Part shown: positions 14,921-60,501 of the stretch, piece by piece | Layout of the letters: the number at the start of each line of letters is the position of its first letter | Position numbering within the stretch: the stretch's first letter is position 1 | Origin: Candidatus Polarisedimenticolaceae bacterium | Lineage (GTDB): Bacteria; Pseudomonadota; Gammaproteobacteria; Chromatiales; Chromatiaceae | Direction: 5' to 3' | DNA: 64,000 nt | NCBI GenBank assembly: GCA_021648685.1 | Contig: JAKISI010000009.1 | Coordinates: 4 to 64,003, forward strand | The notes under the pieces: model-generated | Seen by the model: the letters and a program-made list of their open reading frames with translations, nothing else | Told to the model about the DNA's origin: nothing | The model's database searches: none | Translations under genes and position numbers: made by a program

Positions 14921-14921
14921 C

Positions 14922-16286: not shown

Positions 16287-16360
16287 CTCCCGTCATAAGC
16301 CGCAATCGGCTTGTGGGTTGTCACAAAAAGGGCTAACTTGTAGCCCTACAGAATAAAACA

Positions 16361-17224: not shown

Positions 17225-17237
17225 TCCGGAGCCCCCC

Positions 17238-41748: not shown

Positions 41749-42144
41749 CTATTGCAGCTCCAGCTGCCTGACAAACCCGGCAAACTCCCTATCTTCGGTC
41801 GTGACATGAGGAATAAGCCAGTCTGCCAGATTAGAGGCAATTTCTGCAGCATTAAGCATGTCAACAAGGTAGAGGCCGATCTGCCCGTTTAACCTCTCAA
41901 GCAGCTCCTGATGGGTTGCACAATGCTTTTCCATGCCAGGAAAACCCAGTTTGTGCATGATATTCTCTTCACTCATGAAGTGCTGTTGAGTGTAGCTGCC
42001 CAGCTCATTGATAAGCCTTGTTTGATGAGTAGTATCCCTGGCTTCTGTCTCAGCATAAATCCGGTTAATGAGATCAATAAAATAGCGATGCTGGAGATCA
42101 ATACCTTCAACACCAACCGACCACTTCTGATCCCATGCGAGCAT
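41749..42144 (-). CDS. Bacteriohemerythrin
   Basis: 131 aa. WDQKWSVGVEGIDLQHRYFIDLINRI...HFMSEENIM....FP....H...H..LL......DWL..H...ED matches the hemerythrin His/Glu/Asp ligand pattern. Confidence 0.85.
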   Translation of the reverse strand: MLAWDQKWSVGVEGIDLQHRYFIDLINRIYAETEARDTTHQTRLINELGSYTQQHFMSEENIMHKLGFPGMEKHCATHQELLERLNGQIGLYLVDMLNAAEIASNLADWLIPHVTTEDREFAGFVRQLELQ

Positions 42145-42156
42145 TTGCCAGCCTGA

Positions 42157-42339
42157 TTATTTTTCGGGGTTAACCTTGTTTTCGACACACTTGGATTTAG
42201 TGGTATGGCACCCGCAGCCTTTCGTCTCAAACTTTGGTTTTGCAGGATCCTTCTTATTCAGCCACATCTGGAAAGCTATCCAACCTGCACATAGTGCTAC
42301 CAAGCCAATCAGAGCAAAAAGGTGGTTCCAGATGGACAT
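42157..42339 (-). CDS. Small single-TM protein with Lys/Cys-rich tail
   Basis: 60 aa, starting 5 nt after the rnfA stop. TM HLFALIGLVALCAGWIAFQMW, then KKDPAKPKFETKGCGCHTTKSKC. Loosely resembles FeoB-associated Cys-rich membrane peptides. No clear SD. Confidence 0.35.
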   Translation of the reverse strand: MSIWNHLFALIGLVALCAGWIAFQMWLNKKDPAKPKFETKGCGCHTTKSKCVENKVNPEK

Positions 42340-42344
42340 AGATA

Positions 42345-42926
42345 TTAACTTGAACTAAAAAGCCCGGCAAAGCCCATGAAGGCCATGGACAGGATACCTG
42401 AAATTATAAGGTTAAAGGCAAAACCTCTAATAAGCTTTGGCATGGCATTGACCTTTTCAACCTCTTGACGCATGCCCGCCATCAGTACAATAGCCAGCGT
42501 GAAGCCCATGCCTGCACCCAAAGCGTAGACCAACCCTTCCCAGAGTCCATAGCCTTTGTTGGTTGCAAAGATAGCAAGGCCGAGGATTGCGCAGTTGGTA
42601 GTGATCAGTGGCAGGAAGATACCCAGCGCTCGAAAGAGCGTTGGACTCGTTTTTTTGATGGCCATCTCAATCAACTGCACCACGCTGGCAATCACGACAA
42701 TGAAGCTGATCAGGCGCAGATAGGGGGCATGGATTAAAACATAGGTGTTAAGAAACCAGGCACATAGCGCTGTAACCACCATCACAAAGATGGTTGCCAG
42801 GCCGAGTCGAAACGAGACCTCCAGTTTATTGGATACCCCCAAGAAAGGGCAGAGTCCAAGGAAATAAGCCAGTACAAAGTTATTGATCAGCAGTGTGCTG
42901 ATAAAAATCCAACCTAGATCACCCAT
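42345..42926 (-). CDS. rnfA: Rnf complex subunit A
   Basis: 193 aa, 6 TM, NNFVLAYFLGLCPFLGVS... is an RnfA/NqrE-like signature. Adjacent to rnfE. Confidence 0.9.
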   Translation of the reverse strand: MGDLGWIFISTLLINNFVLAYFLGLCPFLGVSNKLEVSFRLGLATIFVMVVTALCAWFLNTYVLIHAPYLRLISFIVVIASVVQLIEMAIKKTSPTLFRALGIFLPLITTNCAILGLAIFATNKGYGLWEGLVYALGAGMGFTLAIVLMAGMRQEVEKVNAMPKLIRGFAFNLIISGILSMAFMGFAGLFSSS

Positions 42927-42927
42927 T

Positions 42928-43572
42928 TCAGTTTACTCCATCTTCTGTAGCCAGCTGCTTGTCGATCTTATTCTTCTTCTCTTCAAGCCAGTTGAAATAG
43001 AGCAACATGACGCCCAGTGTAATAAAGCCGCCAGGAGGTAGAATCATAATAACCCATGGCTCAAAATTCGCCCCAAACAGGGCAAAACCAAAGATCTCGC
43101 CAACGCCCAGAATCTCACGGACAGCACCCAGGGAAACCAGAGCAAAGAGAAAGCCAGCCCCCATACCGAAAGCATCAGCAACCGACATGCGCAAGGTATT
43201 GCGCGATGCAAATGCCTCCATACGACCGAGAATCAGGCAGTTAGCAACAATCAGCGGGATAAAGGCGCCCAGCTCTTTATGAATTACAGGCAGCGCTGCT
43301 GCCAATGTGTAGTCCACAACGGTAACAAAGGTAGCGATTATGATAATAAAGCAAGAGATACGCACCTGCTTGGGGATGTAGCTTTTAAACAGTGAGACCA
43401 GAATACTGGAACCGAGCAATACGAAAAAACTGGCAAGCCCCATGGCCAATCCGTTGATGGCCGAGTTGGTTACCGCAAGCAATGGACACAACCCCAAGAC
43501 CTGCACGAAAACAGGGTTTTCACGCCAGAGGCCCTTCATAAATTCATCGTATGCGAGTTGTTCTTTAGCCAT
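42928..43572 (-). CDS. rnfE: Rnf complex subunit E
   Basis: 214 aa. GLWRENPVFVQVLGLCPLLAVTNSAINGLAMG is an RnfE/NqrD-like signature. Confidence 0.9.
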   Translation of the reverse strand: MAKEQLAYDEFMKGLWRENPVFVQVLGLCPLLAVTNSAINGLAMGLASFFVLLGSSILVSLFKSYIPKQVRISCFIIIIATFVTVVDYTLAAALPVIHKELGAFIPLIVANCLILGRMEAFASRNTLRMSVADAFGMGAGFLFALVSLGAVREILGVGEIFGFALFGANFEPWVIMILPPGGFITLGVMLLYFNWLEEKKNKIDKQLATEDGVN

Positions 43573-43615
43573 GATTAATGCTTCTAATTTAGTCGATTAT
43601 TTTTCAGGATGTCAG

Positions 43616-44317
43616 CTACTGCGCTTGCGCATCTTCAGCTTCAGGTGGGGTTTCCACCTCTACATAAGCAGGTTCAGCGCCTGGTTCTGGCAGCCTGGAA
43701 ACCCAATAGTCGTTACCCTTGTTGATAATTTTTGCCACTGCTACAGAGGAGATCGTGGCGCCCGTGATCGCATCTATCTCATTAGGCTTACTTTTCCCCT
43801 TCTTCGTAGCAACAATAGGGGGTTCAATAGCCAGATCATCAAAGTTGGCAACAAATGCTGCATCTTTATAAATTTTATCACCCAGACCGGGGGTTTCGCG
43901 GCTGGCAAGTATCCACATGCCGATCACCTTGCGATCCGATGGGCGATAGCCATAAAGCACGCTTATGGTATCTGCAAACCCTGGCCCATCACTTGGAATG
44001 GCGTATCCCATGAATTTGTTGTTGTCGTCATAACCGGCATAAATGGGCTCTTCACCTTTCTCCTCTTTGTAAGAGACCTCCAGCTTGCCCTCTTTGAGCA
44101 GCAGCTTCTGCATCTTGCTTACATTGGGAAGCACCCGGAAGACAGCCTCACGCAACTCACGCGCCTTGTTCTCTTTGATGGTCTCAAAGGTAGCCAGGTA
44201 GATCGCAATAATAATGATCCCTGAAACCAGCCCGGCAATCGCAAGCGTGCCAATCAGGCGAGCCGGGCTTGGCTCATCTGCTACAACAGCAGCTTGCTCT
44301 ACTTTATCTTCACTCAT
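43616..44317 (-). CDS. rnfG: Rnf complex subunit G (FMN-binding)
   Basis: TM anchor plus an FMN_bind domain with IDAITGATISS (covalent FMN Thr motif). I prefer Met17 of the track ORF (nt 44317), 2 nt after the rnfD stop. Confidence 0.85.
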   Translation of the reverse strand: MSEDKVEQAAVVADEPSPARLIGTLAIAGLVSGIIIIAIYLATFETIKENKARELREAVFRVLPNVSKMQKLLLKEGKLEVSYKEEKGEEPIYAGYDDNNKFMGYAIPSDGPGFADTISVLYGYRPSDRKVIGMWILASRETPGLGDKIYKDAAFVANFDDLAIEPPIVATKKGKSKPNEIDAITGATISSVAVAKIINKGNDYWVSRLPEPGAEPAYVEVETPPEAEDAQAQ

Positions 44318-45323
44318 TTTGATCCAGCTCCCGTCCAAATACCCGTGGCTGGGTGTACATGTCAATCAAAGGTGTTGCCGCATTCATCAGCAGGATGGCG
44401 TACATTATCCCTTCTGGAAAGCCGCCAAAGACACGGATGAGTACAACCAGGAGCCCAATGCCAATGGCAAAGATCCAGGTTCCCTTCCGTGTGAGTGGCG
44501 AGGTAACCGGGTCAGTGGCCATAAAGATGGCACCGAGCAACATGCCGCCTGAAAAGACGGTAAAGACTGGCCCTGGATATCTATCCGCATCGACCATAAA
44601 GAGTATCAATGAGAAGATTACTGCAGTACCAATAATGCCCACTGGAATACGCCAATCAAGATCGCGTCGCCACCAGAGATAGATTCCGCCAAGAATAAGC
44701 AGCAGTCCGCTGGTCTCTCCCAGGGAACCTGATGTATTACCGAACAGCAGATCGATAAATGGGGTATCGATATGCTCAAACTTCATCATCCCCAGCGGTG
44801 AGGCTTGCGTAACCGTATCGACAACACCTGTCATCAGGGGCAGTGCAAAAAGGGATGAAGGAATGGTGAAAAAGTCCCCAGGGGCTGTCCATGTGGTCAT
44901 TGCAATCGGGAAAGTGGCCAGCAGAAAGGCACGGCCAACCAGCGCGGGGTTGAATATGTTGGCGCCCATTCCTCCCCAGATGGTCTTTCCAATACCAACA
45001 GCAACGACACCACCGAGAAAGGCCATCCACAAAGGCAGCGCAGGCGGCAGCGTAAGCCCCAGCAACCAACCCGTAAGGATGGCTGTGCCGTCACCAAGGA
45101 AATAGCCTCGTTTCTCTTCGGGGGCAAAATACCACTCGACCAGAACAGCGCCAGCAATACATGCCAGCAGCACCAGAAATGCACCCAAGCCAAAGAACCA
45201 GATGCCAGCCAGGGTGGCAGGCGTTAGCGCATACCAAACATCACGCATAACAACAGGGGTGGTCATCTGCTGCCGCAGCTGTGGCCCGGGTTGTATAAGA
45301 AGTTTTGGATCCTTTTGTGTCAC
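44310..45323 (-). CDS. rnfD: Rnf complex subunit D
   Basis: 337 aa polytopic protein. GANIFNPALVGRAFL and FMATDPVTSP motifs of RnfD/NqrB. Confidence 0.9.
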   Translation of the reverse strand: MTQKDPKLLIQPGPQLRQQMTTPVVMRDVWYALTPATLAGIWFFGLGAFLVLLACIAGAVLVEWYFAPEEKRGYFLGDGTAILTGWLLGLTLPPALPLWMAFLGGVVAVGIGKTIWGGMGANIFNPALVGRAFLLATFPIAMTTWTAPGDFFTIPSSLFALPLMTGVVDTVTQASPLGMMKFEHIDTPFIDLLFGNTSGSLGETSGLLLILGGIYLWWRRDLDWRIPVGIIGTAVIFSLILFMVDADRYPGPVFTVFSGGMLLGAIFMATDPVTSPLTRKGTWIFAIGIGLLVVLIRVFGGFPEGIMYAILLMNAATPLIDMYTQPRVFGRELDQNE

Positions 45324-46684
45324 TGAACCTTCCCCTTCATGGAACGCAGATGATCTTTAGCTGTACGAATATGTTGTACAATCGGAATGCCTGAAGGGCA
45401 CGAGTAGGTGCAACAGCCACACTCTACACAATCCATAACCTTATAGGTTTCAGCCATCTCTTCAAACATGCGCGCCTTTGCCAGACGTGCAAAACGAGCC
45501 GGATTCAGGAAATAGGGACAGGCCTCAACGCAACGACCACAACGGATGCAGTTGTACTCCTGCGGACGTCCGGTCTCATTTTCAGTCAACGCCAATACGC
45601 CTGCGCTGCCTTTGAGCATTGGCGCATCGAGATCGGCAATCGAATCACCCATCATCGGGCCGCCCAGAACCACCTGGCGTGTCTCGTCTGTGAGTCCGCC
45701 GGCATAATCCAGCACTTCGCGTATCGAGGTTCCGAGTGGCACGATCAGGTTGGCAGGATAGGAGACGCCTGGCCCCGAAACTGTAACCACACGCTCGATC
45801 AGCGGCTTGCCGGTCTGAAAATATTCGGCAATGGCGATGATGGTGCCCACGTTATTGACTGCCACCTCGACATCACGCGGCAGCTTGCCTGCTGGCACCT
45901 CAACACCGAACACGGATTTGATCAGCATCTTCTCAGCGCCCTGGGGATACTTCACCTCCAGCGGCATCACACGGATGGGCTGTCCTGGCTTGATCGCATC
46001 CTGCAACGCCTTGATCGCATCGGGCTTGTTCTTCTCGACACCAATGACGATCTCCTCTGCGCCCAGCTTCTGACGCACAATCTCTGCGCCATAGAGCAGC
46101 GCCTCCGTCTGCTCCACCATCTGGCGGTGGTCATTGGTCAGATAGGGTTCACACTCAGCGCCATTGATCAGCAGATAACGGATCTTGTTGCCATCCGGGA
46201 TGGCATATTTCACATGACACGGGAATGCAGCGCCGCCCAACCCCACGATGCCGGCCTTCTGCATCTCGCTGATGAACGCCTCAATTGAGAGCGACTCCCA
46301 GTCGATGGGGTGAACCTCCATCTGCTGCGCATCATATTGATCCGCCTCAATCACGATCGCCTCTTGAAAGGTGCCGTCAGCGTAGCGCTCTGAACCGACG
46401 CCGGTCACGCGCCCGGTGACGGGGCTGTGGAGTGCCACGGAGACAAAGCCACCCGGCTCAGCAATCATCTGACCACGCTTCACTGCATCGCCTGCCTGCA
46501 CAATCGGTTTGGCTGGCGCGCCAACATGCTGACCAAGCGGGATCACAAAGCGTTTGCCAAAAGGAAGGCGCTGGATTGCGAGTTGCTCCGTCTGCTCTTT
46601 GTGATGATGGGGAAACACCCCATGATCAAAGCTGTTACTTAATCGCCGAAATAGATTCATAGTAAAACGGTTATCAGTTGCCAC
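45320..46684 (-). CDS. rnfC: Rnf complex subunit C
   Basis: 454 aa. GLGGAAFPCHVK (NuoF-like NADH/FMN fold), an SLBB domain, and 2x[4Fe-4S] CIRCGRCVEACP / CVECGCCTYSCP. Confidence 0.9.
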   Translation of the reverse strand: MATDNRFTMNLFRRLSNSFDHGVFPHHHKEQTEQLAIQRLPFGKRFVIPLGQHVGAPAKPIVQAGDAVKRGQMIAEPGGFVSVALHSPVTGRVTGVGSERYADGTFQEAIVIEADQYDAQQMEVHPIDWESLSIEAFISEMQKAGIVGLGGAAFPCHVKYAIPDGNKIRYLLINGAECEPYLTNDHRQMVEQTEALLYGAEIVRQKLGAEEIVIGVEKNKPDAIKALQDAIKPGQPIRVMPLEVKYPQGAEKMLIKSVFGVEVPAGKLPRDVEVAVNNVGTIIAIAEYFQTGKPLIERVVTVSGPGVSYPANLIVPLGTSIREVLDYAGGLTDETRQVVLGGPMMGDSIADLDAPMLKGSAGVLALTENETGRPQEYNCIRCGRCVEACPYFLNPARFARLAKARMFEEMAETYKVMDCVECGCCTYSCPSGIPIVQHIRTAKDHLRSMKGKVQ

Positions 46685-46699
46685 ACTACAGGAGGGCGA

Positions 46700-47575
46700 T
46701 TAGCCATTCATCAGCTGAGCCATATGCTCACCCATGTCAGCCGGTGAGCGGGAGACCGTTACACCAGCCGCTTCCAGCGCAGCAATCTTATCGGTGGCAG
46801 CACCTTTGCCGCCCGAGATGATGGCCCCCGCATGTCCCATGCGACGCCCTGGAGGTGCTGTCAGACCCGCGATATAGGAGACAACCGGCTTGGTGACATT
46901 GGCCTTGATGTACTCTGCGGCCTCCTCCTCTTTACTGCCGCCGATCTCTCCCACCATGATGATCCCTTCGGTCTGCTCATCCTCCTGGAACAGCTTCAGG
47001 CAGTCGATAAAGTTCATGCCGTGAATGGGATCACCACCAATGCCGACACAGGTGGATTGCCCCAGGCCGGCCAGAGAGGTCTGACGAACCGCCTCATAGG
47101 TGAGCGTACCGGAGCGTGAGACAACACCAATCTTGCCCGGCTGGTGGATGGCTCCCGGCATGATGCCGATCTTGCATTCGCCGGGTGTGATCACACCCGG
47201 GCAGTTGGGGCCAATCAGATAGGGCTTGTTGTGGCCACGTAGCGCTGCCTTCACCTTCAGCATATCCACAACCGGAATACCCTCGGTGATGCAGACAATC
47301 ACCTTGATACCGGCATCGGCTGCTTCCAGGATGGCATCGGCTGCAAAGGCGGGCGGCACATAGATCATGCTGGCATCCGCGCCGGTTGCATCGACCGCAT
47401 CGGCCACTGTGTTGAACACCGGCCGATCCAGATGGGATTGACCACCCTTGCCGGGGGTCACGCCACCAACGATGTTGGTACCGTACGCAATGGCCTGTTC
47501 AGCATGGAATGTACCCTGCTTTCCCGTGTAACCCTGGACGACAACCTTGGTCTCTTTATTGATTAAAATACTCAT
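46700..47575 (-). CDS. sucD: Succinyl-CoA synthetase alpha subunit
   Basis: [22 protein letters not shown]...[10 protein letters not shown]...GIGGDP...RRMGHAGAI (catalytic His loop). Canonical SucD. Confidence 0.95.
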
Positions 47576-47621
47576 TTTAATATTCCTGTATCAGCATTCA
47601 GCTAAAGCCGCTAGCAGACGG

Positions 47622-47984
47622 TCAGAAGCGCTTCACAACCGTCCAGCCACTATCTTCTTTCACCATTCGTATGCTGGCCTTGCGCTTCTGGCGCTTGGCG
47701 GGGGGATAGGTTATATCCATCTCCACCCGGCAGCGATACCCCTGCTTGCCATCCACTTCGCTCCGCTTGCAGTTGAGCTTGTCGAGGGCATGGATCGTTG
47801 TTGCAACCGCAGCGCCCGCCTCTTCACCCAACATGGTCTGCGCCAGCTCATTGGCTCTCTCCATCTCGGATTGCAGCGCCTTTTTCAGATCCGCTTCCGT
47901 TGGCTCTCCTGAGCATCCTGCCAGCGCTGCTCCCAGCACTGCAATGGTGAAACCGGTAACCAGGGTCTTCAGTGATCTCCCCAT
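47622..47984 (-). CDS. Small lipoprotein inserted between sucC and sucD
   Basis: MGRSLKTLVTGFTIAVLGAALAGCSG is a textbook Sec/SPII signal with the lipobox LAGC. 120 aa, no other motif. Weak SD. Confidence 0.6.
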   Translation of the reverse strand: MGRSLKTLVTGFTIAVLGAALAGCSGEPTEADLKKALQSEMERANELAQTMLGEEAGAAVATTIHALDKLNCKRSEVDGKQGYRCRVEMDITYPPAKRQKRKASIRMVKEDSGWTVVKRF

Positions 47985-48013
47985 AACCGGCGTCGATGGT
48001 ATACAGCCGTTGG

Positions 48014-49174
48014 TCAGGCGATGGATGCGACGACCTTCTTGGCCGCATCGGTCAACCCTTCGGCAGAGATCAGGTTCAGACCACTCTGATCCAGCAGCTC
48101 CCGGCCCTGTGGCGCATTGGTACCCTCCAGCCGCACAACGACCGGGATTGAGATACCCACATCCTTCACTGCGGCGATGATCCCTTCCGCAATCAGATCA
48201 CAGCGAACGATGCCGCCGAAGATATTCACCAGAATGGCTTCCACCTTTGAATCACTCAGAATCAGTTTGAAGGCAGCCGCCACACGTTCAGCCGTGGTGC
48301 CACCACCCACATCCAGAAAGTTGGCCGGGTCACCACCGTGCAGTTTGATCAGATCCATGGTGGCCATCGCCAGACCTGCACCGTTGACCATGCAGCCGAT
48401 ATTGCCGTCCAGGGTGATGTAGTTGAGGTCATGCTTCTGCGCCTCACACTCCTGTGCGTCTTCCTGGCTCTCGTCGCGCATCTCCAGCAGATCCGGATGG
48501 CGATAGAGGGCATTGTCATCAATGTTGATCTTGCCATCCAGTGCCAGCAGATCACCATCGCCAGTCACGATCAGCGGGTTGATCTCAACCAGGCTCATAT
48601 CTTTGTCATCAAACAGTCGGTAAAGCCCCATCATGATTCGGGTCAGCGCACCAACCTGCTTCCCCTCCAGCCCCATACGAAAGGCCGCTTGGCGACACTG
48701 GTAGGGTTGCAGGCCTGCGGCCGGATCGGCACAGACGGTGACGATCTTCTCCGGTGTTGCCTCGGCAACCTCTTCAATATCCATACCGCCCGATGCCGAG
48801 GCCATGAAGACAACCCGCTCGGTTGCGCGGTCAACCACAGCACTCAGATAGAGTTCACGGTCGATATCCAGTGTCTGCTCAATCAGCACCTGGCTGACCG
48901 GCAGCTCGCGCCCGTGGGTCTGGAAGGTAGCCAGAGCGCTTCCCAACATGCGATCCGTCTCCAGCTTCAGCTCATCGATGCTTTTGACCAGCTTCACGCC
49001 ACCAGCCTTGCCTCGCCCACCAGCATGTATCTGCGCCTTGACCACCCAGGCCTCACCGCCGATGGCATTGGCCGCAGATTCAGCATCGTTTACTGAATCA
49101 ACCATCTGTCCCACAGGGATGGGGATTCCATACTCTGCGAAGAGGCCCTTCGCTTGATATTCATGTAGGTTCAT
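48014..49174 (-). CDS. sucC: Succinyl-CoA synthetase beta subunit
   Basis: [18 protein letters not shown]....[15 protein letters not shown]...[38 protein letters not shown]...[11 protein letters not shown] is near-collinear with E. coli SucC. Confidence 0.95.
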
Positions 49175-49261
49175 AGGCTTTTACTCAATTTGTCGGTAAA
49201 TTTGCTTAAGCTATCAGCAGCGGGGGCAAGCTGGCCACGCGCCAATAGCCCTCCCTTACTC

Positions 49262-53887: not shown

Positions 53888-54737
53888 GTCGTTTCTGGCT
53901 CTTCTCTTGGCTATGTTCTTCGAACTGGTTACCCTCCAGCCACTTTATCGCCCCGGTCGGGCAGCGGTAGGTGGCTTTTGGCTTTGCATTACCGAGATCA
54001 AAATGCACGATGGGCAGATTGTTCTCCATGACCACTACGCCCGGCTCAGCATCCAGGGCACAACGGCCACAGGCATCACAAGCTACGGTACACAGCGCCA
54101 CTGCATCATCACCAGCTAAGGGGTTGTTGCATTGAACGTAGAGTTTTTCGTTAAGCGGCAAAATCTCAAACAGATCGCGCGGACAGGCATCAACGCAGTC
54201 GCCACAGGCAGTACAGAGATCGACCTCGACCTTTGGCAGGCCATTGTCGTTCATGGTGATTGCACCGAAGGTGCAGGAGATCTCGCAGTCGGCAAGCCCC
54301 AGGCAACCCCAGGAACAGCCCTTGCCACCACCTGCAACCATATCCGCAGCCCGACAGCCATCAAAACCTTTGTACTCCGCAATCTGATGCGCTTCTGCCA
54401 CACCACCGGCACAGCGCAGCCGCGCTACCCGTTTGTTCTGCTCGCCCGCATCCACCCCGAGATATTCGGCGATGCTTTCCAGTACATCCGGGCTTGCAAC
54501 GGTGCACAGGCTTGGCTCTACCTCGCCTGAAACCAGTTTCTCAGAGAAGGCGCGACAGCCGGGTTCACCGCAGGCACCGCAGTTGGTACCCGGGAGCAAA
54601 TCTTCGGTATCGTCGATGCGTGGGTCTTCCTCTACCTTCAGGTATCGGTAGGCCACGGCAAGGACAACACCAAAGAACAGTCCCAGTCCGAGCATGATGC
54701 CCGGTGCAGAAAATAGTGTTCCGAGATCAAATGACAT
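53880..54737 (-). CDS. rnfB: Rnf complex subunit B (long, polyferredoxin form)
   Basis: N-terminal TM and a CGACGEPGCRAF motif, then several 4Fe-4S motifs (CTACGDCVDACP, CDACGRCA...). 285 aa. Confidence 0.85.
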   Translation of the reverse strand: MSFDLGTLFSAPGIMLGLGLFFGVVLAVAYRYLKVEEDPRIDDTEDLLPGTNCGACGEPGCRAFSEKLVSGEVEPSLCTVASPDVLESIAEYLGVDAGEQNKRVARLRCAGGVAEAHQIAEYKGFDGCRAADMVAGGGKGCSWGCLGLADCEISCTFGAITMNDNGLPKVEVDLCTACGDCVDACPRDLFEILPLNEKLYVQCNNPLAGDDAVALCTVACDACGRCALDAEPGVVVMENNLPIVHFDLGNAKPKATYRCPTGAIKWLEGNQFEEHSQEKSQKRHA

Positions 54738-54832
54738 TCGATATTCGCTTCGTTGTCAGGGAGCCAGGAGAGGCGCGGGAAACCACTGCCTCAGGGCAGT
54801 TCGTTTCGCGCCTTGCTCCTATGCGGCAATCC

Positions 54833-57319
54833 CTAGTTGTACGCTTCTGCCCGCTTGATCAGATCATCCAGATCAGGCTCATCCGGGTTCAGAGGTTTGC
54901 CTGGATGGATGCAGTTAGCAGGACAGAACTCAGCCGACTCTACCAGTTGGGCAAAGGTTCCAGCCGTTGCATCTGCAATATAGGCCTGCTTGTTGTCGTC
55001 ATAGACGAACATCAGCGGGTTGAGATTGATACAGTCATTGCAGGTGGTGCATAGAATCGTTTCGATCCACGGATCATCGAAGCTCACCTCTTCCTCTTCA
55101 GGTTCGGGTGCCGCTTCAGGCTCAGCTGCAGCCTCTGGTTCCGCCTTTTCCGTCGATACAGCAGCAGAGGCTGTGGTTGCCACAGCCGGTGTACCGGCAG
55201 CAGGCAGTGCCGCGGAGAGATCCATTCCCACCAGCGCATTAGCCAATCGACCCAGTGCCTCGCCCGCTGTTTCGCTACGGACACGCTCCAGCTCTTCAGC
55301 CTGCTCGCTCTGCATGGCCTCAATCTCGGCAGCCGCAGCCGCTTGCGCCTCTTCACTGGCTCTCTGTACCGCCAGATCTATATAGCGGCTACGCACACCG
55401 GCCAGCTCCTGAAGAGTGCGCCAGTAGTTGCGGCGGTCACGGCAGGCTATGACCAGTGCACGGGAGATCACCAGACGCTGCATCACATCGTTACCATCCA
55501 CCGCCCAGATGAAGGGTACGCTGCTATTGGCCTGCTCTTCTGGCAGCGTCAACCACTGTGCAACTGGCACAAGATCATCTGCGCTATTTCCCTCCGTGAC
55601 CACGCCAAAGTGTGCCTTCAGGCTTGGAATCAGCAGCGCATAATCGGCAAAGGTGAAGGAGAGTTCTGAATGTACTGTGTTGCCGTCTGCATCAACATAG
55701 CTGTAGTTGTGGTTTGGCCAATCATGCTCGGCCTGCGGATTGCCGCTGAAATCCATGCGCGAGGCAAAATCATCGCCTGCATCAGGATTGATCAGAAAGG
55801 CTGGATGGGCGCGCCCTTCCAGTGCGGCACTGGCCACAAACCACGGATCAAGCGAACCGCCTTCGGATGACTTAACGCCCGTGCTGACCAGGTGCAGGCC
55901 GGTGCAGGTGGCATCAAGTGCCAAGCCGTACTGCGTCAGCAGATGCTCGTAGCGTGCCGCAGAGGACTGAGCAACCACAGCCTGGCGATGGCTGATACCG
56001 AGGTACCCAAGCTCCACACGGTAGCGCGCAAATGGATCTTCACCTTCAGCCGCAGCCGGATTACTGTGCGCCTGAACCCGCACCAGTATCTGTACCGGAC
56101 GACCGGAACTCAGCAGCTGCGAAAAGGAGCAGAGTCCGCTGGTTGCGACATTGCTGGCATTATCAATGGCAACAATGGTCGGCAGCAGCAGCAGCTCTTC
56201 CTGAGAAAAACCTTCCCAGCCAAAATTCTTGAACCAGGCATCATGGATCGCAGGCCTGTAGGCATCTCTGCTCTCCAGCCGGGCAATGCGTACCGCCGCA
56301 AAAATCTGAGCCAGTTTCTCTGCCTCTGCATCAAAGGCGGCTGCAGCTACTGCGCAGGGATCCACATCGCTGACGGATGCAAAATCAGCCGCATCGGAGA
56401 GTAGCGCCCCACCCAGTTTATCGGTGTGTACAGCACGCACCAGCACAGGATCGCTCTGATAAGATTCAAGAACCTCCAGTGCAGCTTCAACACGTTTACG
56501 TCGCGCAGCTGCCATTGATGCAGAACCCTGTGTATGGTTCATCATCTTCGACATGGCTGTAGCATTGAAATAGCCGCTTGAAACACCAATGCTCTGTTTG
56601 ATGGCGGTCGACTTCCTTGCCGCAGCTGTCTTGCCTTTTTCCACGGCCAACAGCGCTTTCAGGCTGGCGGCCAGCTGGACAATCTCCTGATGGAATGCCG
56701 CGCGGCGGGGCAGTGATTTGCAGCGCGCCACATGCAGCAGCAGATAGACCGCTGCCAGACGCCCATAGCCCAAGAACTGGCCACCCTCTTCAACGGCAGC
56801 AACCAGTTGGTTCAGGTCGGCCTGCAGACGTTCAACATGCTCACCCTTCAGGTCAAGCTGCTTCTGCAACGCCTCTGCTGCATCAGCAACCAGAGGAGCC
56901 GCATCGACCGGTGCCTCCTGGCCTTGCAATTTGCTGCACAGCTCGCGCTCGATCCAGGCAAGGTTGTCTTTGAGGATGCGCGCGCTTTCGGCAGCGGGCG
57001 CAAAACCCTCTACTACATCACCAAGAAAGCGGGAGAGCGGCTTTGCCAAAACATCACCGCCACTCTGCGCTGGGTAGAGGAACAACGGGTAGTCGTACCT
57101 GACCTTCGAAACATCCCGAAAGCTGTTGAGTGAGACGGGCAGGAACTCGCTGCTCACTTTTCCAAGTGTGGATTTAGCGCCAGGCTCACCCAGATGAAAG
57201 TGGCGCAGAGTGTTCATCAGCTCGTCAGAGGCATCAGCAGAAGCGGGGAGAAAAGGCACTCCTCCCGCGCTTCGCTCTGATTCCTGCAGCGGCTGCTTTT
57301 TACTAGCTTGTGCTGTCAT
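54833..57319 (-). CDS. 828-aa protein: unknown N-terminal region + PFOR domain-VI-like region + Ala/Glu/Pro linker + C-terminal single-cluster ferredoxin
   Basis: aa ~370-645 parallel the C-terminal third of the 1541-aa protein (ELGYLGISHRQAVVAQSS vs DLGLMAMAQRVAYVAQSS; PFIWAV...MQRLVISR...NYWRTLQELAGV vs PFIQLP...RQRIRVDA...QSWCTLQELAGI). The linker is AEPEAAAEPEAAPEPEEEE. The ferredoxin motif is CTTCNDC...CPANC (nt ~54920-55051). Confidence 0.7.
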   Translation of the reverse strand: MTAQASKKQPLQESERSAGGVPFLPASADASDELMNTLRHFHLGEPGAKSTLGKVSSEFLPVSLNSFRDVSKVRYDYPLFLYPAQSGGDVLAKPLSRFLGDVVEGFAPAAESARILKDNLAWIERELCSKLQGQEAPVDAAPLVADAAEALQKQLDLKGEHVERLQADLNQLVAAVEEGGQFLGYGRLAAVYLLLHVARCKSLPRRAAFHQEIVQLAASLKALLAVEKGKTAAARKSTAIKQSIGVSSGYFNATAMSKMMNHTQGSASMAAARRKRVEAALEVLESYQSDPVLVRAVHTDKLGGALLSDAADFASVSDVDPCAVAAAAFDAEAEKLAQIFAAVRIARLESRDAYRPAIHDAWFKNFGWEGFSQEELLLLPTIVAIDNASNVATSGLCSFSQLLSSGRPVQILVRVQAHSNPAAAEGEDPFARYRVELGYLGISHRQAVVAQSSAARYEHLLTQYGLALDATCTGLHLVSTGVKSSEGGSLDPWFVASAALEGRAHPAFLINPDAGDDFASRMDFSGNPQAEHDWPNHNYSYVDADGNTVHSELSFTFADYALLIPSLKAHFGVVTEGNSADDLVPVAQWLTLPEEQANSSVPFIWAVDGNDVMQRLVISRALVIACRDRRNYWRTLQELAGVRSRYIDLAVQRASEEAQAAAAAEIEAMQSEQAEELERVRSETAGEALGRLANALVGMDLSAALPAAGTPAVATTASAAVSTEKAEPEAAAEPEAAPEPEEEEVSFDDPWIETILCTTCNDCINLNPLMFVYDDNKQAYIADATAGTFAQLVESAEFCPANCIHPGKPLNPDEPDLDDLIKRAEAYN

Positions 57320-57343
57320 AATCGTGGAGTCTGCCTGTAGCGG

Positions 57344-58297
57344 TTAGATCGAGAAGGAGTCAAGCGCCTTGTTAACACCGGCGATCTTCTCTTCGTCAGA
57401 CATGTCCATGCCTACGTTGCTCCAGTCGTCATAGACCGGGGCTTCCGGGTCGTGGTAGAGCAGCCCGCAGGGCACCCTGCTCTCATCACGAGCGATATTC
57501 ATGGCGCCACTCCAGTCAGACGGGTCATGCACTACCTGATTCGGGTAGATGCGTTCAACCGCCTCATTGGTCGGGATACCGTTCTCATGCTTCAGCAGCA
57601 GGATCTGGGATGGATCGTCCATCATCTCCTTATGAATATCCTCCACAAAGACCGGGCAACGCTGGATGATGCGCACAAAGCTGGTACCACGGTGGGCATG
57701 CGCCATCTTGATGGTCTCATAGACCAGCAGCGGGTTCCAATCCACAACCTGTGCCACAAATGACACGTTGGTAATGCCCAGGGTAATGGTCAGTGGATTC
57801 ATCGCCGGCAGGAAAGAGCCAGTTGGATGGGTGCTGGTTCCATAATCTTTTGGCGTGGTGGGTGAAGTCTGGTTTTTAGTCAAACCATAAATGGCATTGT
57901 CAAATACCAGAACCACCATATCAATGTTGTAACGTATGCCGTGTATCCAGTGGCAGCCGCCAATGGAGAAGCAGTCACCATCACCGGTGGAGACCCAGAC
58001 ATCCAGATCCGGGCGACGCGCCTTGATGCCAGAGGCAAAGGGCAGCGCACGACCATGCAGGCCGTGAAAGCCGTAGGTCTTCATGTAGTGCGGCAGGCGG
58101 CTTGAACAGCCGATGCCCGATACATTGACAATTTTCTCGGGCGCCAGCTGCGCCTCTCGGCACACCTTTTGCACGGCAGTCAATACACCATGGTCGCCAC
58201 AACCGGTACACCAGCGTGGCTGCGCACCTTCATAATCTTCAAGCGTAAAATAGCGGTCTTGAACGTCAAGTGACCAATCTGCTTTAAGTCCGAACAT
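57344..58297 (-). CDS. korB: 2-oxoglutarate(2-oxoacid):ferredoxin oxidoreductase beta subunit (TPP-binding)
   Basis: WCTGCGDHG, GIGCSSR and the canonical TPP motif STGDGDCFSIGGCHWIHGIRYNIDMVVLVFDNAIYGLTKNQ. Confidence 0.9.
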   Translation of the reverse strand: MFGLKADWSLDVQDRYFTLEDYEGAQPRWCTGCGDHGVLTAVQKVCREAQLAPEKIVNVSGIGCSSRLPHYMKTYGFHGLHGRALPFASGIKARRPDLDVWVSTGDGDCFSIGGCHWIHGIRYNIDMVVLVFDNAIYGLTKNQTSPTTPKDYGTSTHPTGSFLPAMNPLTITLGITNVSFVAQVVDWNPLLVYETIKMAHAHRGTSFVRIIQRCPVFVEDIHKEMMDDPSQILLLKHENGIPTNEAVERIYPNQVVHDPSDWSGAMNIARDESRVPCGLLYHDPEAPVYDDWSNVGMDMSDEEKIAGVNKALDSFSI

Positions 58298-58309
58298 CGA
58301 CGTAATCTC

Positions 58310-60214
58310 CTAATTCAGTTTCTTCAGACGACCAAGAACGGCCTCACAAATCATTCCAGGCTGCAACGGCGCGGCCTGCACGATAGACCAGCAGTCAATA
58401 TCCAGCAGCGTATGGTGGCGCAGGATATTGGCCAGCTGGGCATAGCGGCGGGTGGCATCGGTGATCAGCGGCATATCAGGATCGTCGCTATAGTTCAGCT
58501 CAACGGTCATCACCTTCTTGAACTTGGAGAAGATCTCTTTCAGATCCTTCTCAAACGGATGCAGGAAACGCAGGTGAACATTAGAGACCTTATGACCCTC
58601 AGAACGCATACGATCCACAGCCTCCTTAACAGCCCCCATGGTGGAACCCCAGGAGACAACCAGCATGTCACCCTCTTTGTCACCATAGATCTCAGGCCGC
58701 TGCAGGGTAGCGGCAAAGGCAGCCATTTTGCGGCTGCGCATGTTACAACCGATCTGATTTGACATGGAGTCGTAGGCCACCTTACTGCGCTTGGTGTGAG
58801 CCAGTCCGGTCAGGACGTACTCACCACCAGGCTGACCTGGGATTGGCCGTGGCGACAGGCCGGTCTCATCATCCCAGTCATAGGGTGGAATATTTTTGTC
58901 CCACTCCGACTGGTCAATCGGCGCAGAGAGCCATTCGGCCTGAGGCTCTGGACGATCATAGGGTTGCACAGCGGTCGCCAGGTTGGCATCGGTCAGGATA
59001 ATGACCGGGGTGCGGAAGGCCTCGGCCAGCTTGCGCGCCGTGATCACAAAGTGGAAACACTCGGAGATGGTGGCCGGTGCCATAACGATCTTGGGTGCGT
59101 CGCCAGGCATGCTGTAGATCGCTGAGAGCAGATCACCCTGTTCGATCTTGGTCGGCTGGCCGGTTGCCGGGCCGCCACGCTGAACATTGACAACTACCAG
59201 TGGCACCTCACACATTACAGCCAGACCCAGAATCTCGGTCTTAAGTGCCATACCGGGGCCAGAGGTGACAGTAACAGCGGTTCTGCCTGCAAAGGAGGAG
59301 CCGACTGCATAGGCAACTGCCGCAATCTCATCCTCGGCCTGATGCATAAACCCGCCGGTATGGTGAAACACTTCTGATACATAGTGAGAGACAGAGGTTG
59401 CCGGAGTGATCGGATACATTGCCAGCATATCCATACCGGAAGCCAGTATACCCAGGCCAACCGCCGTGTTGCCGTTGGTCACTACCGTAGGCTTCTGTAT
59501 GCCCTCATGCTCAGGCGGAACCTCGTAATGGTATTCGAGGTTCTCAGCAGCGTACTGGTAGCCCGCCTTAAACAGCTCGTGGTTTGGCTTGATCACCTTC
59601 TCGCCCTTGCGTGCGAAGACCTTTGCAATCTCATCCAATGCACGCTGGGTATCACGACTGTAGATACGGCAGAGCATGCCAAGTACAAACATGTTCTTGC
59701 CCTGGCGGGCATTTTTAACAATCTTGAGGCACTCTTTCTCAAGCGGCAGCTCATGGATAACCAGGCCTCGCTCCTTGAAGTCAGCCAGCGCCGCCGCATA
59801 CTGCTCGCGGATTGCCGGCTGCGGATCATCTGCCCATTTGTTCTCCAGCAGAACCACCGTGCCCTTGCGGAAAGCACCATTTACGATGCGGTTGTAGAGC
59901 ACCTGCTCGTTCAGGGCGACAACCAGATCTGCCTGGTCGCCCATGTTGGTGACATATTTGGAACCCAGACGGATGCGAACACCACTGGCACCCTCCTGCG
60001 AACGGGCAGGCGGCTGAATCTCAGCGGGGATGATCTCCACTGTCCAGACGCCGTTCCCCATCTTGCCACTAACGATGCCAAAGGTTTGTCCACACTTCTG
60101 GGCACCTTCGCCAGAGTCACTGACAACCTCAATGATATGCTCTTCAATACGCTTTGGTTTTCCTGCGGAAATCTCAGCGACATTGCTTTTTTGCGCTGTT
60201 GCTTGTTTAGTCAT
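58310..60214 (-). CDS. korA: 2-oxoglutarate(2-oxoacid):ferredoxin oxidoreductase alpha subunit (gamma-alpha fusion)
   Basis: 634 aa. N-terminal gamma-like domain (SDSGEGAQKCG), then an alpha domain (GNTAVGLGILASGMDMLAMYPITPAT...QAEDEIAAV...TSGPGM). Confidence 0.9.
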   Translation of the reverse strand: MTKQATAQKSNVAEISAGKPKRIEEHIIEVVSDSGEGAQKCGQTFGIVSGKMGNGVWTVEIIPAEIQPPARSQEGASGVRIRLGSKYVTNMGDQADLVVALNEQVLYNRIVNGAFRKGTVVLLENKWADDPQPAIREQYAAALADFKERGLVIHELPLEKECLKIVKNARQGKNMFVLGMLCRIYSRDTQRALDEIAKVFARKGEKVIKPNHELFKAGYQYAAENLEYHYEVPPEHEGIQKPTVVTNGNTAVGLGILASGMDMLAMYPITPATSVSHYVSEVFHHTGGFMHQAEDEIAAVAYAVGSSFAGRTAVTVTSGPGMALKTEILGLAVMCEVPLVVVNVQRGGPATGQPTKIEQGDLLSAIYSMPGDAPKIVMAPATISECFHFVITARKLAEAFRTPVIILTDANLATAVQPYDRPEPQAEWLSAPIDQSEWDKNIPPYDWDDETGLSPRPIPGQPGGEYVLTGLAHTKRSKVAYDSMSNQIGCNMRSRKMAAFAATLQRPEIYGDKEGDMLVVSWGSTMGAVKEAVDRMRSEGHKVSNVHLRFLHPFEKDLKEIFSKFKKVMTVELNYSDDPDMPLITDATRRYAQLANILRHHTLLDIDCWSIVQAAPLQPGMICEAVLGRLKKLN

Positions 60215-60501
60215 AGGCCTTCCCGTGAAGTACTCTCAAGGATGTATTTTAAAAAAAACTTATGGCTGCACGCATTTGTTAAAGCTGTGCGCACCGCCCG
60301 AAACTATAGGCTTTCCGTTGGATTTTACAGGCAAAAACAGCCCTGAAAATCGCTGCAATAACTCTCAAAGAGGCCGCACTATGTCAAAAGTGAGCCACAA
60401 GGTCAAATAATATAATCACTTAAATTTATCTTTTTTTCATTGAGCATAAGTCATTGTTTATAGCCGCCATAATCCATCAGTTACCCAACAGAGGGGGGGC
60501 A

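What the first reader, a model, noticed from the sequence alone, without database searches (positions are those of the whole stretch)
41749..60214. 18.5-kb same-strand block interleaving Rnf genes with reductive-TCA enzymes
The order on the minus strand is korA, korB, the 828-aa gene, rnfB, the PFOR paralogue, sucC, a lipoprotein gene, sucD, rnfC, rnfD, rnfG, rnfE, rnfA, a small ORF and a hemerythrin gene. Gaps range from -8 to 95 nt.

The rnf genes are not contiguous: rnfB is separated from rnfCDGEA by ~7.2 kb of 2-oxoacid/succinyl-CoA metabolism. The CDGEA order is the clostridial/anaerobe order rather than the gammaproteobacterial rnfABCDGE.

Succinyl-CoA synthetase, OGOR and a ferredoxin-reducing Rnf together make up the thermodynamically difficult carboxylation arm of the reverse TCA cycle. 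The physical interleaving suggests co-translation or assembly of a ferredoxin-channelling unit.
Basis: partly seen in the sequence, partly recalled or inferred. Interest (0 to 1): 0.6.

Follow-up and report, generated by a model that had tools for sequence, protein, structure and literature searches.

The report
Rnf-linked 2-oxoglutarate synthase gene cluster
This is a real, tightly packed 18.5-kb gene block joining an Rnf ion pump to 2-oxoglutarate:ferredoxin oxidoreductase and succinyl-CoA synthetase, but the same cluster is conserved in hundreds of sulfur-oxidising Gammaproteobacteria and is already published for tubeworm and clam symbionts, so this is a new member of a known kind.

Summary
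Fifteen minus-strand genes lie at 41749-60214 in the stated order, with gaps of -8 to 95 nt. rnfB lies 7.2 kb from rnfCDGEA. No promoter- or terminator-like sites were found beyond chance.

The order is conserved. The core korAB, 828-aa protein, rnfB, ~1500-aa PFOR-like gene, rnfCDGEA appears in 42 of 55 informative loci from sulfur-oxidising Gammaproteobacteria. sucCD sits between the PFOR-like gene and rnfC in 12 of these. The 828-aa marker occurs in 361 species genomes.

It is already published. Rubin-Blum et al. 2019 list it as "rTCA cycle cluster 2" of tubeworm symbionts. Dmytrenko et al. 2014 describe rnfBCDGEA with "PFOR" between rnfB and rnfC. Both propose that Rnf recycles ferredoxin.

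My analysis adds three points:
- The two "PFOR" genes lack the TPP motif, the proximal-cluster cysteines and the activating Glu, but keep ferredoxin-type clusters. KorAB is intact.
- The cluster is not rTCA-specific: 13 of 19 carrier genomes lack ATP-citrate lyase.
- This genome has ACL and no RuBisCO, and this block holds its only OGOR, SCS and Rnf.

The direction of electron flow is unproven.

The parts
60215..60501 (-). 287-nt AT-rich spacer upstream of korA. It is the likely promoter region of the block, with two sigma-70-like matches at 60406-60378 and 60349-60322.
   Evidence: The matches are consensus hits only, and the count over the whole region is not above that in shuffled sequence.
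58310..60214 (-). korA, 634 aa. It is the fused gamma+alpha subunit (domains III, I, II) of a two-subunit 2-oxoglutarate:ferredoxin oxidoreductase.
   Evidence: POR, POR_N, PFOR_II. (TIGR03710, 506 bits against a cut-off of 483). (best PDB match 6N2N, Magnetococcus marinus OGOR, E 1e-80).
57344..58297 (-). korB, 317 aa. It is the TPP- and [4Fe-4S]-binding beta subunit, with intact motifs.
   Evidence: The alignment shows WCTGCGDHG, GIGCSS, TGDGDCFSIG and RCPV conserved against 5B46_B.
54833..57319 (-). 828-aa protein (p828). It has an N-terminal helical region and a degenerate PFOR domain-VI-like core (aa ~363-672). An Ala/Glu/Pro-rich linker connects this to a C-terminal single-cluster ferredoxin (CxxCxxC...CP).
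   Evidence: Fer4_13. (28% identity, E 1e-24 to PFOR-like aa 1211-1511). (D. africanus Fd I). (AF2 pLDDT 65.5; weak Foldseek hits to PFOR/OFOR beta and Fd I). (invariant C757, C760, C763, C799).
54738..54832 (-). 95-nt spacer between p828 and rnfB. It folds into a long hairpin with no U tract after it.
   Evidence: -37.9 kcal/mol, z -3.0. (present in the own clade L003-L006 and L008; absent in L007).
53880..54737 (-). rnfB, 285 aa. It has an N-terminal membrane helix, an FeS (PF04060) domain and several 4Fe-4S motifs. It is the only rnfB in the genome.
   Evidence: (no paralogue). It overlaps the next gene by 8 nt, and the same overlap is seen in 25 of 52 related loci.
49262..53887 (-). 1541-aa PFOR-like protein (PFL). 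It keeps domains I-II and the two CxxCxxCxxxC clusters of domain V. It lacks the GDG...N TPP/Mg motif, all four proximal-cluster Cys and the TPP-activating Glu.
   Evidence: Alignments against the genome's own canonical PFOR (C87) and against 6CIN_A.
48014..49174 (-). sucC, the ADP-forming succinyl-CoA synthetase beta subunit. It is the only copy in the genome.
   Evidence: NF001913, 580 bits. (the only other hit is the 22%-identical ACL beta on C91).
47622..47984 (-). 120-aa ORF with a lipoprotein-type signal (LAGC). It occurs only in the own clade.
   Evidence: (hits only in L003, L005-L008). No Pfam or NCBIfam family.
46700..47575 (-). sucD, the succinyl-CoA synthetase alpha subunit. It is the only copy in the genome.
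   Evidence: NF004230, 472 bits..
45320..46684 (-). rnfC, the NADH/FMN-binding subunit.
   Evidence: TIGR01945, 523 bits.
44310..45323 (-). rnfD.
   Evidence: TIGR01946, 337 bits.
43616..44365 (-). rnfG. The true start is probably the ATG at 44317.
42928..43572 (-). rnfE.
   Evidence: TIGR01948, 233 bits.
42345..42926 (-). rnfA.
   Evidence: TIGR01943, 229 bits.
42157..42339 (-). 60-aa membrane mini-protein with a CGCH...C tail. It is conserved directly after rnfA in many relatives.
   Evidence: (tblastn hits after rnfA in about 17 loci, 38-55% identity).
41749..42144 (-). Bacteriohemerythrin, the last gene of the same-strand run.
   Evidence: NF033749, 97 bits. Its conservation in relatives was not tested because the flanks end before it.
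60502..61749 (-). NuoF-like flavoprotein upstream on the same strand. It is outside the reported block but accompanies korA in many relatives.
   Evidence: (upstream of korA in about 30 loci). Listed as nuoF* in "rTCA cycle cluster 2" of PMC6315080, Table S1.

Best explanation
The block is one operon-like unit. It is a member of the conserved gammaproteobacterial cluster korAB, p828, rnfB, PFOR-like, (sucCD), rnfCDGEA, which wires the cell's only Rnf complex to its only 2-oxoglutarate:ferredoxin oxidoreductase and succinyl-CoA synthetase.

Shown:
- gene identities and tight spacing;
- conservation of the gene order;
- an intact KorAB of the single-cluster type that has no ferredoxin domain;
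- a membrane-anchored poly-FeS RnfB;
- two PFOR-derived proteins that have lost their TPP and proximal-cluster motifs but keep ferredoxin-type clusters.

Inferred:
- RnfCDGEA uses the Na+/H+ gradient to push electrons from NADH up to low-potential Fe-S carriers. These carriers are RnfB, the two domain-V clusters of the PFOR-like protein, and the tethered ferredoxin of p828.
- These carriers reduce KorAB.
- KorAB carboxylates the succinyl-CoA made by SucCD to 2-oxoglutarate.

In this organism (type-II ATP-citrate lyase present, RuBisCO absent) that would be the ferredoxin-dependent carboxylation step of an rTCA cycle. The chain is reversible, and it could also run oxidatively under other conditions.
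For: - Identities.
- Spacing of -8 to 95 nt, and no excess of promoter- or terminator-like sites.
- Synteny: of 55 loci with at least 8.5 kb downstream, 30 have p828-rnfB-PFL-rnfC.., 12 have sucCD in between, and 5 have sucCD without rnfC. korB lies upstream in 61 of 66.
- The sucCD variant is scattered over at least 6 clades of the p828 tree, so the association is recurrent.
- The rnfB/PFL 8-nt overlap is conserved in 25 of 52 loci.
- In tubeworm-symbiont genomes rnfB stays with kor-p828-PFL, while rnfCDGEA lies 8.8 kb away without an rnfB of its own.
- KorAB is intact and resembles MmOGOR and StOFOR.
- PFL and p828 are degenerate for catalysis but keep Fe-S motifs.
- This genome holds only one rnf, one rnfB, one korAB and one sucCD. 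ACL is on C91, RuBisCO is absent, and a canonical PFOR lies elsewhere.
- Literature: the orthologous genes are expressed in the Escarpia symbiont and are reported as co-transcribed with rnf (PMC6315080, Table S1 and Text S1 Note 4).
Against: - Direction is not determinable from sequence.
- The genome also encodes sucA-sucB-lpd. The sole SucCD must therefore also serve an oxidative cycle.
- 13 of 19 carrier genomes lack ACL, and 15 of 19 have RuBisCO. The cluster's general role cannot be the rTCA cycle.
- In Endoriftia, korAB(3) and "PFOR-like" fall in expression when the ACL/korABCD rTCA cluster rises (PMC11636981).
- There is no evidence of physical contact between KorAB, p828, PFL and RnfB.
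- The strong hairpin between p828 and rnfB could be an internal regulatory or processing site.
- No dsrB was found, so the organism's lithotrophic or autotrophic status is uncertain.
Confidence: 0.55

Rival explanations
1. The hardware is the same but the main direction is oxidative. KorAB oxidises 2-oxoglutarate to succinyl-CoA and SucCD makes ATP. The reduced Fe-S carriers are re-oxidised by Rnf, which reduces NAD+ and pumps ions. This would be an anaerobic, energy-conserving replacement for 2-oxoglutarate dehydrogenase.
For: - Most carriers are CBB autotrophs without ACL.
- Tubeworm symbionts are reported to lack ogdh, and their korAB neighbours gltA (PMC6315080, Text S1 Note 2).
- In Endoriftia, korAB(3) and PFOR-like are regulated opposite to the rTCA cluster.
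- Rnf in anaerobes usually runs in this direction (established knowledge).
Against: - This genome has its own sucAB-lpd, so a replacement is not needed aerobically.
- It has ACL and no RuBisCO, and no other OGOR that could serve an rTCA cycle.
- The closest solved relative of KorA is the CO2-fixing M. marinus OGOR.
Confidence: 0.3
2. This is the published reading. The 1541-aa gene is a working pyruvate:ferredoxin oxidoreductase, and the 828-aa gene is a PFOR-like enzyme. Rnf merely recycles a free ferredoxin for separate soluble carboxylases, with no dedicated adaptor role.
For: - Both are annotated as por and por-like in PMC6315080 and as PFOR in PMC4287430.
- Domains I-II match PFORs at E 1e-28 to 1e-60.
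- The two domain-V clusters are kept.
Against: - The GDG...N TPP/Mg motif, the four proximal-cluster Cys and the activating Glu are all replaced. The replacements are conserved across 17 homologues of 36-70% identity.
- The genome has a separate canonical PFOR with all motifs.
- p828 matches only the degenerate C-terminal part.
Confidence: 0.1
3. The neighbourhood has no functional coupling. Unrelated central-metabolism genes happen to have been inserted into an rnf operon.
For: - sucCD and the lipoprotein gene are lineage-variable inserts.
- Tubeworm symbionts tolerate an 8.8-kb insertion between sucD and rnfC.
- Beggiatoaceae have the pieces rearranged.
Against: - The core order is conserved across families at 45-70% protein identity, in 42 of 55 informative loci.
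- The rnfB/PFL overlap is conserved.
- Even the rearranged Beggiatoaceae loci keep rnfDG next to korAB.
- A second paralogous rnfB-PFL2-rnfCDGEA cluster exists.
Confidence: 0.05

Closest known systems
"rTCA cycle cluster 2" of vestimentiferan tubeworm symbionts (Escarpia laminata, Riftia). Source: Rubin-Blum, Dubilier & Kleiner 2019, mSphere, PMC6315080.
   Same: The same genes appear in the same order: nuoF*, korA, korB, por-like (= p828), rnfB, por (= PFOR-like), sucC, sucD. Orthologues are 48-80% identical. The authors propose the same idea, that Rnf recycles ferredoxin for OGOR/PFOR.
   Different: - Here rnfCDGEA follows sucD directly. In the symbionts it lies about 8.8 kb downstream.
- This window has an extra lipoprotein ORF.
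- This window lacks the ferredoxin and FAD-protein genes, gltA and mdh that lie upstream of nuoF in the symbionts. A hemerythrin gene ends the run here; the symbionts' rnfA end was not examined for one.
- This host lacks RuBisCO, and tblastn with this korA found no second OGOR (a four-subunit korABCD was not searched for by profile), so this korAB is the only OGOR seen.
rnf2 (rnfBCDGEA) operon of the Solemya velum symbiont. Source: Dmytrenko et al. 2014, PMC4287430.
   Same: It has the rnfBCDGEA order with a "pyruvate:ferredoxin oxidoreductase" gene between rnfB and rnfC.
   Different: - That genome also has a conventional rnfABCDGE operon. This genome has none.
- The paper treats the inserted gene as a working PFOR that feeds pyruvate electrons to Rnf. 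The motif analysis here argues against that.
Two-subunit OGOR of Magnetococcus marinus (PDB 6N2N/6N2O) and StOFOR (5B46).
   Same: KorA and KorB align over nearly their full length (E 1e-80 and E 3e-48 to 9e-50). The TPP and single [4Fe-4S] motifs are intact, and there is no ferredoxin domain.
   Different: Here the enzyme is encoded inside an rnf operon, next to two PFOR-derived Fe-S proteins.
Canonical homodimeric PFOR (M. thermoacetica 6CIN, D. africanus 1B0P).
   Same: The PFOR-like protein shares domains I-II and the two domain-V [4Fe-4S] motifs, plus the fold-level remnant of domain VI. p828 shares that remnant.
   Different: - The TPP/Mg motif, the proximal-cluster Cys and the activating Glu are lost.
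- There are insertions of about 100 aa and about 230 aa.
- There is a C-terminal coiled extension.
- The protein is 1541 aa against about 1170-1230 aa for canonical PFORs.
rnfBCDGEA operons of Chlorobi/Bacteroidetes (PMC4014512).
   Same: The subunit order is B-C-D-G-E-A. RnfB is of the long poly-ferredoxin type. Its best NCBIfam hits are PRK07118 and Methanosarcina-type RnfB at 185-211 bits, against RsxB at 76 bits.
   Different: The host is a gammaproteobacterium. 7.2 kb of other genes lie between B and C, and korAB-p828 lies in front.

Membership tests
Rnf complex (RnfABCDGE) | All six subunit genes are present. | tested here: met
   rnfB, C, D, G, E and A were all identified. rnfB, C, D and E score above the curated NCBIfam subfamily cut-offs. 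rnfA is exactly at its cut-off (229.3). rnfG scores 96 against a cut-off of 102, slightly below, but it has the FMN_bind domain.
Rnf complex (RnfABCDGE) | RnfB has an N-terminal membrane anchor and Fe-S clusters. RnfC has an NADH/FMN site and 2x[4Fe-4S]. | tested here: met
   RnfB sequence: a hydrophobic N-terminus, PF04060, and CxxCxxCxxxCP motifs. RnfC has RnfC_N, Complex1_51K, SLBB and Fer4 domains.
Rnf complex (RnfABCDGE) | Ion-translocating ferredoxin:NAD+ oxidoreductase activity. | not testable with these tools
   This needs membrane-vesicle assays.
[quoted passage not shown] | Alpha subunit with domains III+I+II. Beta subunit with the GDG TPP motif and four Cys for one [4Fe-4S]. | tested here: met
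[quoted passage not shown] | Specificity for 2-oxoglutarate. | tested here: inconclusive
   The best solved relative is the M. marinus OGOR, and the orthologues are called korAB in the literature. However, only the subfamily model TIGR03710 is passed, and no equivalog cut-off is reached.
ADP-forming succinyl-CoA synthetase | SucC and SucD equivalog models are passed. | tested here: met
   NF001913 at 580 bits (cut-off 370) and NF004230 at 472 bits (cut-off 336).
Pyruvate:ferredoxin oxidoreductase (for the 1541-aa protein) | TPP/Mg2+-binding GDG...N motif in domain VI. | tested here: not met
   GGDGWAYDIG is replaced by VGNDETLAGRG, and LDTE(T/V)YSNTGGQ by LADLGFGLD. The changes are conserved in 17 homologues. 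TIGR02176 scores 152 bits against a cut-off of 911.
Pyruvate:ferredoxin oxidoreductase (for the 1541-aa protein) | Four Cys ligands of the proximal [4Fe-4S] cluster. | tested here: not met
   GACVGCGET is replaced by GDGAESGSGEK, STGCSS by APGTVA, and SPCI by PSPG.
Pyruvate:ferredoxin oxidoreductase (for the 1541-aa protein) | Two ferredoxin-type clusters of domain V. | tested here: met
   CTGCGKCWSSCP and CKNCGICITVC are invariant in alignment A2.
Reductive TCA cycle (organism level) | ATP-citrate lyase together with OGOR and PFOR. | tested here: met
   Type-II ACL at C91:10540-14658. korAB in this block. Canonical PFOR at C87:7669-11319.
Reductive TCA cycle (organism level) | Fumarate reductase, and actual reductive flux. 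| tested here: inconclusive
   Several FAD_binding_2 flavoproteins are present, but none was assigned. Flux is not testable here. OGDH is also present.
Published "rTCA cycle cluster 2" / rnfB-PFOR-rnfCDGEA cluster | Gene content and order: korA-korB-por-like-rnfB-por-(sucCD)-rnf. | tested here: met

The most novel reading that the evidence does not exclude
The 828-aa and 1541-aa proteins are not relict enzymes. They are dedicated Fe-S adaptor subunits, derived from PFOR, that dock the ferredoxin-domain-less KorAB onto membrane-bound RnfB. This would create a supercomplex that needs no free ferredoxin. In it, the ion gradient directly drives NADH-dependent carboxylation of succinyl-CoA, or the reverse reaction. 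The tethered ferredoxin of p828 would act as a swinging arm. The conserved 8-nt rnfB/PFL overlap would reflect co-assembly.
Probability: 0.2. Interest if true: 0.75.

Novelty: new member of a known kind. Interest (0 to 1): 0.38.

Why it matters
If Rnf, two PFOR-derived Fe-S proteins and KorAB really work as one unit, this widespread cluster (361 species genomes) would show how aerobic or microaerobic sulfur oxidisers pay for a ferredoxin-dependent carboxylation. NADH alone cannot drive that step.

It would also be a clear case of enzymes turned into electron-wiring subunits.

For this genome specifically, the block holds the only OGOR, the only SCS and the only Rnf. The lineage has ACL but no RuBisCO. 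The block is therefore the natural place to test whether this Sedimenticola-like clade fixes CO2 by the rTCA cycle alone.

The gene order itself and the ferredoxin-recycling idea are already published, so the surprise for a specialist is moderate.

Tried and rejected
- Promoter/terminator scan: nothing above shuffled expectation, so it neither splits nor proves the operon.
- AF2 model of p828: only moderate quality (pLDDT 65.5). Foldseek hits to PFOR/OFOR-beta are weak (E 6e-3, TM 0.14) and serve only as support for the sequence-level paralogy.
- The PFOR-like protein was not folded, because 1541 aa exceeds the 1200-aa limit.
- "Clostridial order" was considered and rejected in favour of the rnfBCDGEA type.
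- "Second conventional rnf operon" was rejected. tblastn finds only Nqr on C71.
- "Cluster = rTCA marker" was rejected on the ACL and RuBisCO distribution.
- A single origin of the sucCD insertion was rejected. The p828 tree needs 8 changes.
- Literature searches for rnfB + rnfC + PFOR + sulfur-oxidizing gave nothing useful.
- An RnfC/D phylogeny against a host tree was not done. No named outgroup sequences were available in the box.

Full report
**1. Observation**

- korA (634 aa; POR, POR_N and PFOR_II domains; TIGR03710 above cut-off)
- korB (317 aa)
- an 828-aa protein in which only a C-terminal single-cluster ferredoxin domain is recognised
- rnfB (285 aa)
- a 1541-aa PFOR-like protein
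- sucC
- a 120-aa ORF with a lipoprotein-type signal
- sucD
- rnfC, rnfD, rnfG, rnfE and rnfA
- a 60-aa membrane mini-protein
- a bacteriohemerythrin

Recomputed gaps run from -8 to 95 nt. The -56 at rnfD/rnfG disappears if rnfG starts at the ATG at 44317. rnfB and rnfC are 7,195 nt apart.

A consensus scan finds no more promoter- or terminator-like sites than in shuffled sequence. None of the minus-strand terminator-like sites lies in a spacer. A 287-nt AT-rich spacer with two sigma-70-like matches precedes korA.

The one notable internal feature is a -37.9 kcal/mol hairpin (z -3.0) in the 95-nt p828-rnfB spacer. It has no U tract. It is present in the closest relatives but absent in L007.

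**2. Is the order conserved?**

The 828-aa protein is the most specific marker. It has 637 relatives in the protein collection. The named ones come from Sedimenticola, from tubeworm, Solemya and lucinid symbionts, and from Chromatiaceae. It has relatives in 361 species genomes of GTDB.

I ran tblastn with all 16 window proteins against 80 loci with 10-kb flanks. Among the 55 loci with at least 8.5 kb downstream:
- 30 have p828-rnfB-PFL-rnfCDGEA.
- 12 have sucCD between PFL and rnfC, as here.
- 5 (tubeworm symbionts) have p828-rnfB-PFL-sucCD without rnfC behind.
- 8 (Beggiatoaceae, Thiosymbion, Thiorhodococcus) have p828 alone.

Further points on synteny:
- korB lies just upstream in 61 of 66 loci.
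- Several of the rearranged Beggiatoaceae-type loci (L021, L024, L027, L054) keep rnfD-rnfG divergently next to korA.
- On a p828 tree the sucCD variant is scattered over at least six clades. The tree needs 8 changes, against a shuffled mean of 12.2. SCS has therefore joined or left the cluster repeatedly.
- The 8-nt rnfB/PFL overlap recurs in 25 of 52 loci.
- In tubeworm-symbiont genomes the orthologous rnfCDGEA lies about 8.8 kb downstream of sucD and has no rnfB of its own.
- A second, paralogous rnfB-PFL2(1644 aa)-rnfCDGEA cluster exists elsewhere in those genomes.

**3. What the parts are**

KorA's best solved relative is the Magnetococcus marinus OGOR (6N2N, E 1e-80). KorB keeps the Cys ligands and the GDGD TPP motif. 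This is an intact two-subunit OGOR of the kind that carries a single [4Fe-4S] cluster and has no ferredoxin domain.

RnfB has an N-terminal membrane helix and several Fe-S motifs. It scores far better against anaerobe- and Methanosarcina-type RnfB models than against RsxB.

The subunit order B...CDGEA is the rnfBCDGEA type described for Chlorobi/Bacteroidetes (PMC4014512) and for rnf2 of the Solemya velum symbiont (PMC4287430). It is not the clostridial CDGEAB type.

I aligned the 1541-aa protein with the genome's own canonical PFOR (C87). I also aligned it, as a 17-sequence profile, with M. thermoacetica PFOR 6CIN. Results:
- It keeps domains I-II and both CxxCxxCxxxC motifs of domain V.
- The TPP/Mg motif is lost: GGDGWAYDIG becomes VGNDETLAGRG, and LDTE.YSNTGGQ becomes LADLGFGLD.
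- All four proximal-cluster cysteines are lost.
- The TPP-activating Glu (SEAG) is replaced by Pro or Ala.
- These changes are conserved in homologues only 36-70% identical to it.

p828 residues 363-672 are paralogous to PFL residues 1211-1511 (28% identity, E 1e-24), which is the same degenerate domain. p828 ends in a D. africanus Fd-I-like ferredoxin behind an Ala/Glu/Pro-rich linker. A moderate AF2 model (pLDDT 65.5) gives weak Foldseek hits to PFOR, to OFOR-beta and to Fd I.

The "PFOR paralogue" is therefore very unlikely to be a working PFOR. Both large proteins look like Fe-S proteins derived from PFOR.

**4. Genomic context**

The genome is 2.95 Mb in 98 contigs and 98.8% complete.
- It has only this rnf set and this rnfB. 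The hits on C71 are Nqr.
- It has only this korAB and only this sucCD.
- sucA-sucB-lpd lie on C93 without sucCD.
- A type-II ATP-citrate lyase, with monomeric IDH and MDH, lies on C91.
- A canonical PFOR lies on C87.
- Aconitase and several fumarate-reductase-type flavoproteins are present.
- RuBisCO is absent here and in the three closest carrier genomes. dsrB is absent.

Among 19 other carrier genomes, only 6 have this ACL and 15 have RuBisCO. The cluster as a family is therefore not an rTCA module. In this particular clade, though, it supplies the only OGOR for a possible rTCA cycle.

**5. What is already known**

Rubin-Blum, Dubilier and Kleiner 2019 (PMC6315080) list "rTCA cycle cluster 2" of the Escarpia laminata symbiont in Table S1: gltA, ferredoxin, frdx*, nuoF*, korA, korB, por-like, rnfB, por, sucC, sucD. 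All are expressed. Their text makes three relevant statements:
- The dimeric KorAB may run in both directions.
- The symbionts lack ogdh.

Dmytrenko et al. 2014 noted PFOR genes between rnfB2 and rnfC2.

Mitchell et al. 2024 (PMC11636981) found that korAB(3) and "PFOR-like" decrease in expression when the ACL/korABCD cluster increases under sulfide limitation. They list the direction of Rnf and of the OGOR/PFOR isoforms as unknown.

In the papers I read, the published annotations treat the large gene as a real PFOR; the motif analysis here argues against that.

Two earlier follow-up notes of this scan, on other genomes, reached the same reading. I re-derived it here independently, but they are not independent evidence.

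**6. Mechanism**

The best-supported model (confidence 0.55) has these steps:
1. One transcription unit starts upstream of korA.
2. RnfCDGEA and RnfB, driven by the ion gradient, lift electrons from NADH to low-potential Fe-S carriers.
3. The clusters of PFL and the tethered ferredoxin of p828 carry the electrons to KorAB.
4. KorAB carboxylates the succinyl-CoA supplied by SucCD.

Gene identities, motif states, conservation and copy numbers are shown. Electron path, physical association and direction are inferred.

Three rivals remain:
- The oxidative reading (0.3) uses the same hardware in reverse. It is favoured by the distribution in CBB autotrophs and by the Endoriftia expression data.
- The published "real PFOR" reading (0.1) conflicts with the motif losses.
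- Pure coincidence of neighbourhood (0.05) conflicts with the synteny.

**7. Verdict**

The block is a new member of an already described cluster type. It has local peculiarities:
- a fully contiguous arrangement;
- a clade-specific lipoprotein ORF and spacer hairpin;
- a hemerythrin gene at the tail;
- a host with ACL but no RuBisCO.

Interest is moderate (0.38). The open and testable question is whether the two dead PFOR paralogues physically bridge KorAB and Rnf.

Noticed in passing
window 54738-54832 (minus strand): The 95-nt p828-rnfB spacer folds into a long hairpin (-37.9 kcal/mol, z -3.0) with no U tract. The hairpin is present, with sequence changes, in the closest relatives (L003-L006, L008) but missing in L007. 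In the Riftia symbiont a "23S rRNA IVP" gene sits at this junction (L001:12550-12972).
   Followed up: partly
genome G000: C91:7845-15652; whole genome: The host genome (98.8% complete) has a type-II ATP-citrate lyase next to monomeric IDH and MDH. It has no RuBisCO large subunit and no dsrB. The three closest carrier genomes (G001-G003) also have ACL and no RuBisCO. This may be a Sedimenticola-like clade with rTCA as its only CO2-fixation route, or a heterotroph.
   Followed up: partly
window 60502-61749 (minus strand): A solitary NuoF-like flavoprotein lies 287 nt upstream of korA. It is found upstream of korA in about 30 related loci. In tubeworm symbionts it follows a Fer2_4 protein and a 539-aa FAD-binding protein (L001:3158-6681). 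This might be a further NADH-linked electron entry.
   Followed up: partly
L094 (G021:C4:84000-102000), minus strand 6856-17859: A second, paralogous cluster is present in a tubeworm-symbiont-like genome: rnfB (54% identity), a PFOR-like protein of 1644 aa (27%), a 165-aa ORF, and rnfCDGEA (37-61%). The rnfB-PFOR-like-rnfCDGEA architecture therefore exists in at least two lineages.
   Followed up: partly
window 47622-47984 (minus strand): The 120-aa lipoprotein-like ORF between sucC and sucD is found only in the own clade (L003, L005-L008). It matches no Pfam or NCBIfam family.
   Followed up: partly
window 42157-42339 (minus strand): A 60-aa protein with one membrane helix and a CGCH...C tail is conserved directly after rnfA in about 17 related loci (38-55% identity). 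It may be an unrecognised small Rnf-associated subunit.
   Followed up: partly
genome G000: C93:25451-31045: sucA-sucB-lpd form an operon without sucCD. The genome's only sucCD has moved into the kor/rnf block.
   Followed up: yes
L048:12603-13415: In one MAG the rnfB of the cluster is broken into four frame-shifted pieces, and the PFOR-like gene is split. This is either a pseudogenised copy or long-read assembly errors.
   Followed up: no
window 39245-41718 (plus strand): Two genes converge on the hemerythrin end of the block. One encodes an ATP-cone + P-loop kinase protein. The other encodes an ApgM-type metalloenzyme (PhosphMutase family). The two overlap by 4 nt.
   Followed up: no
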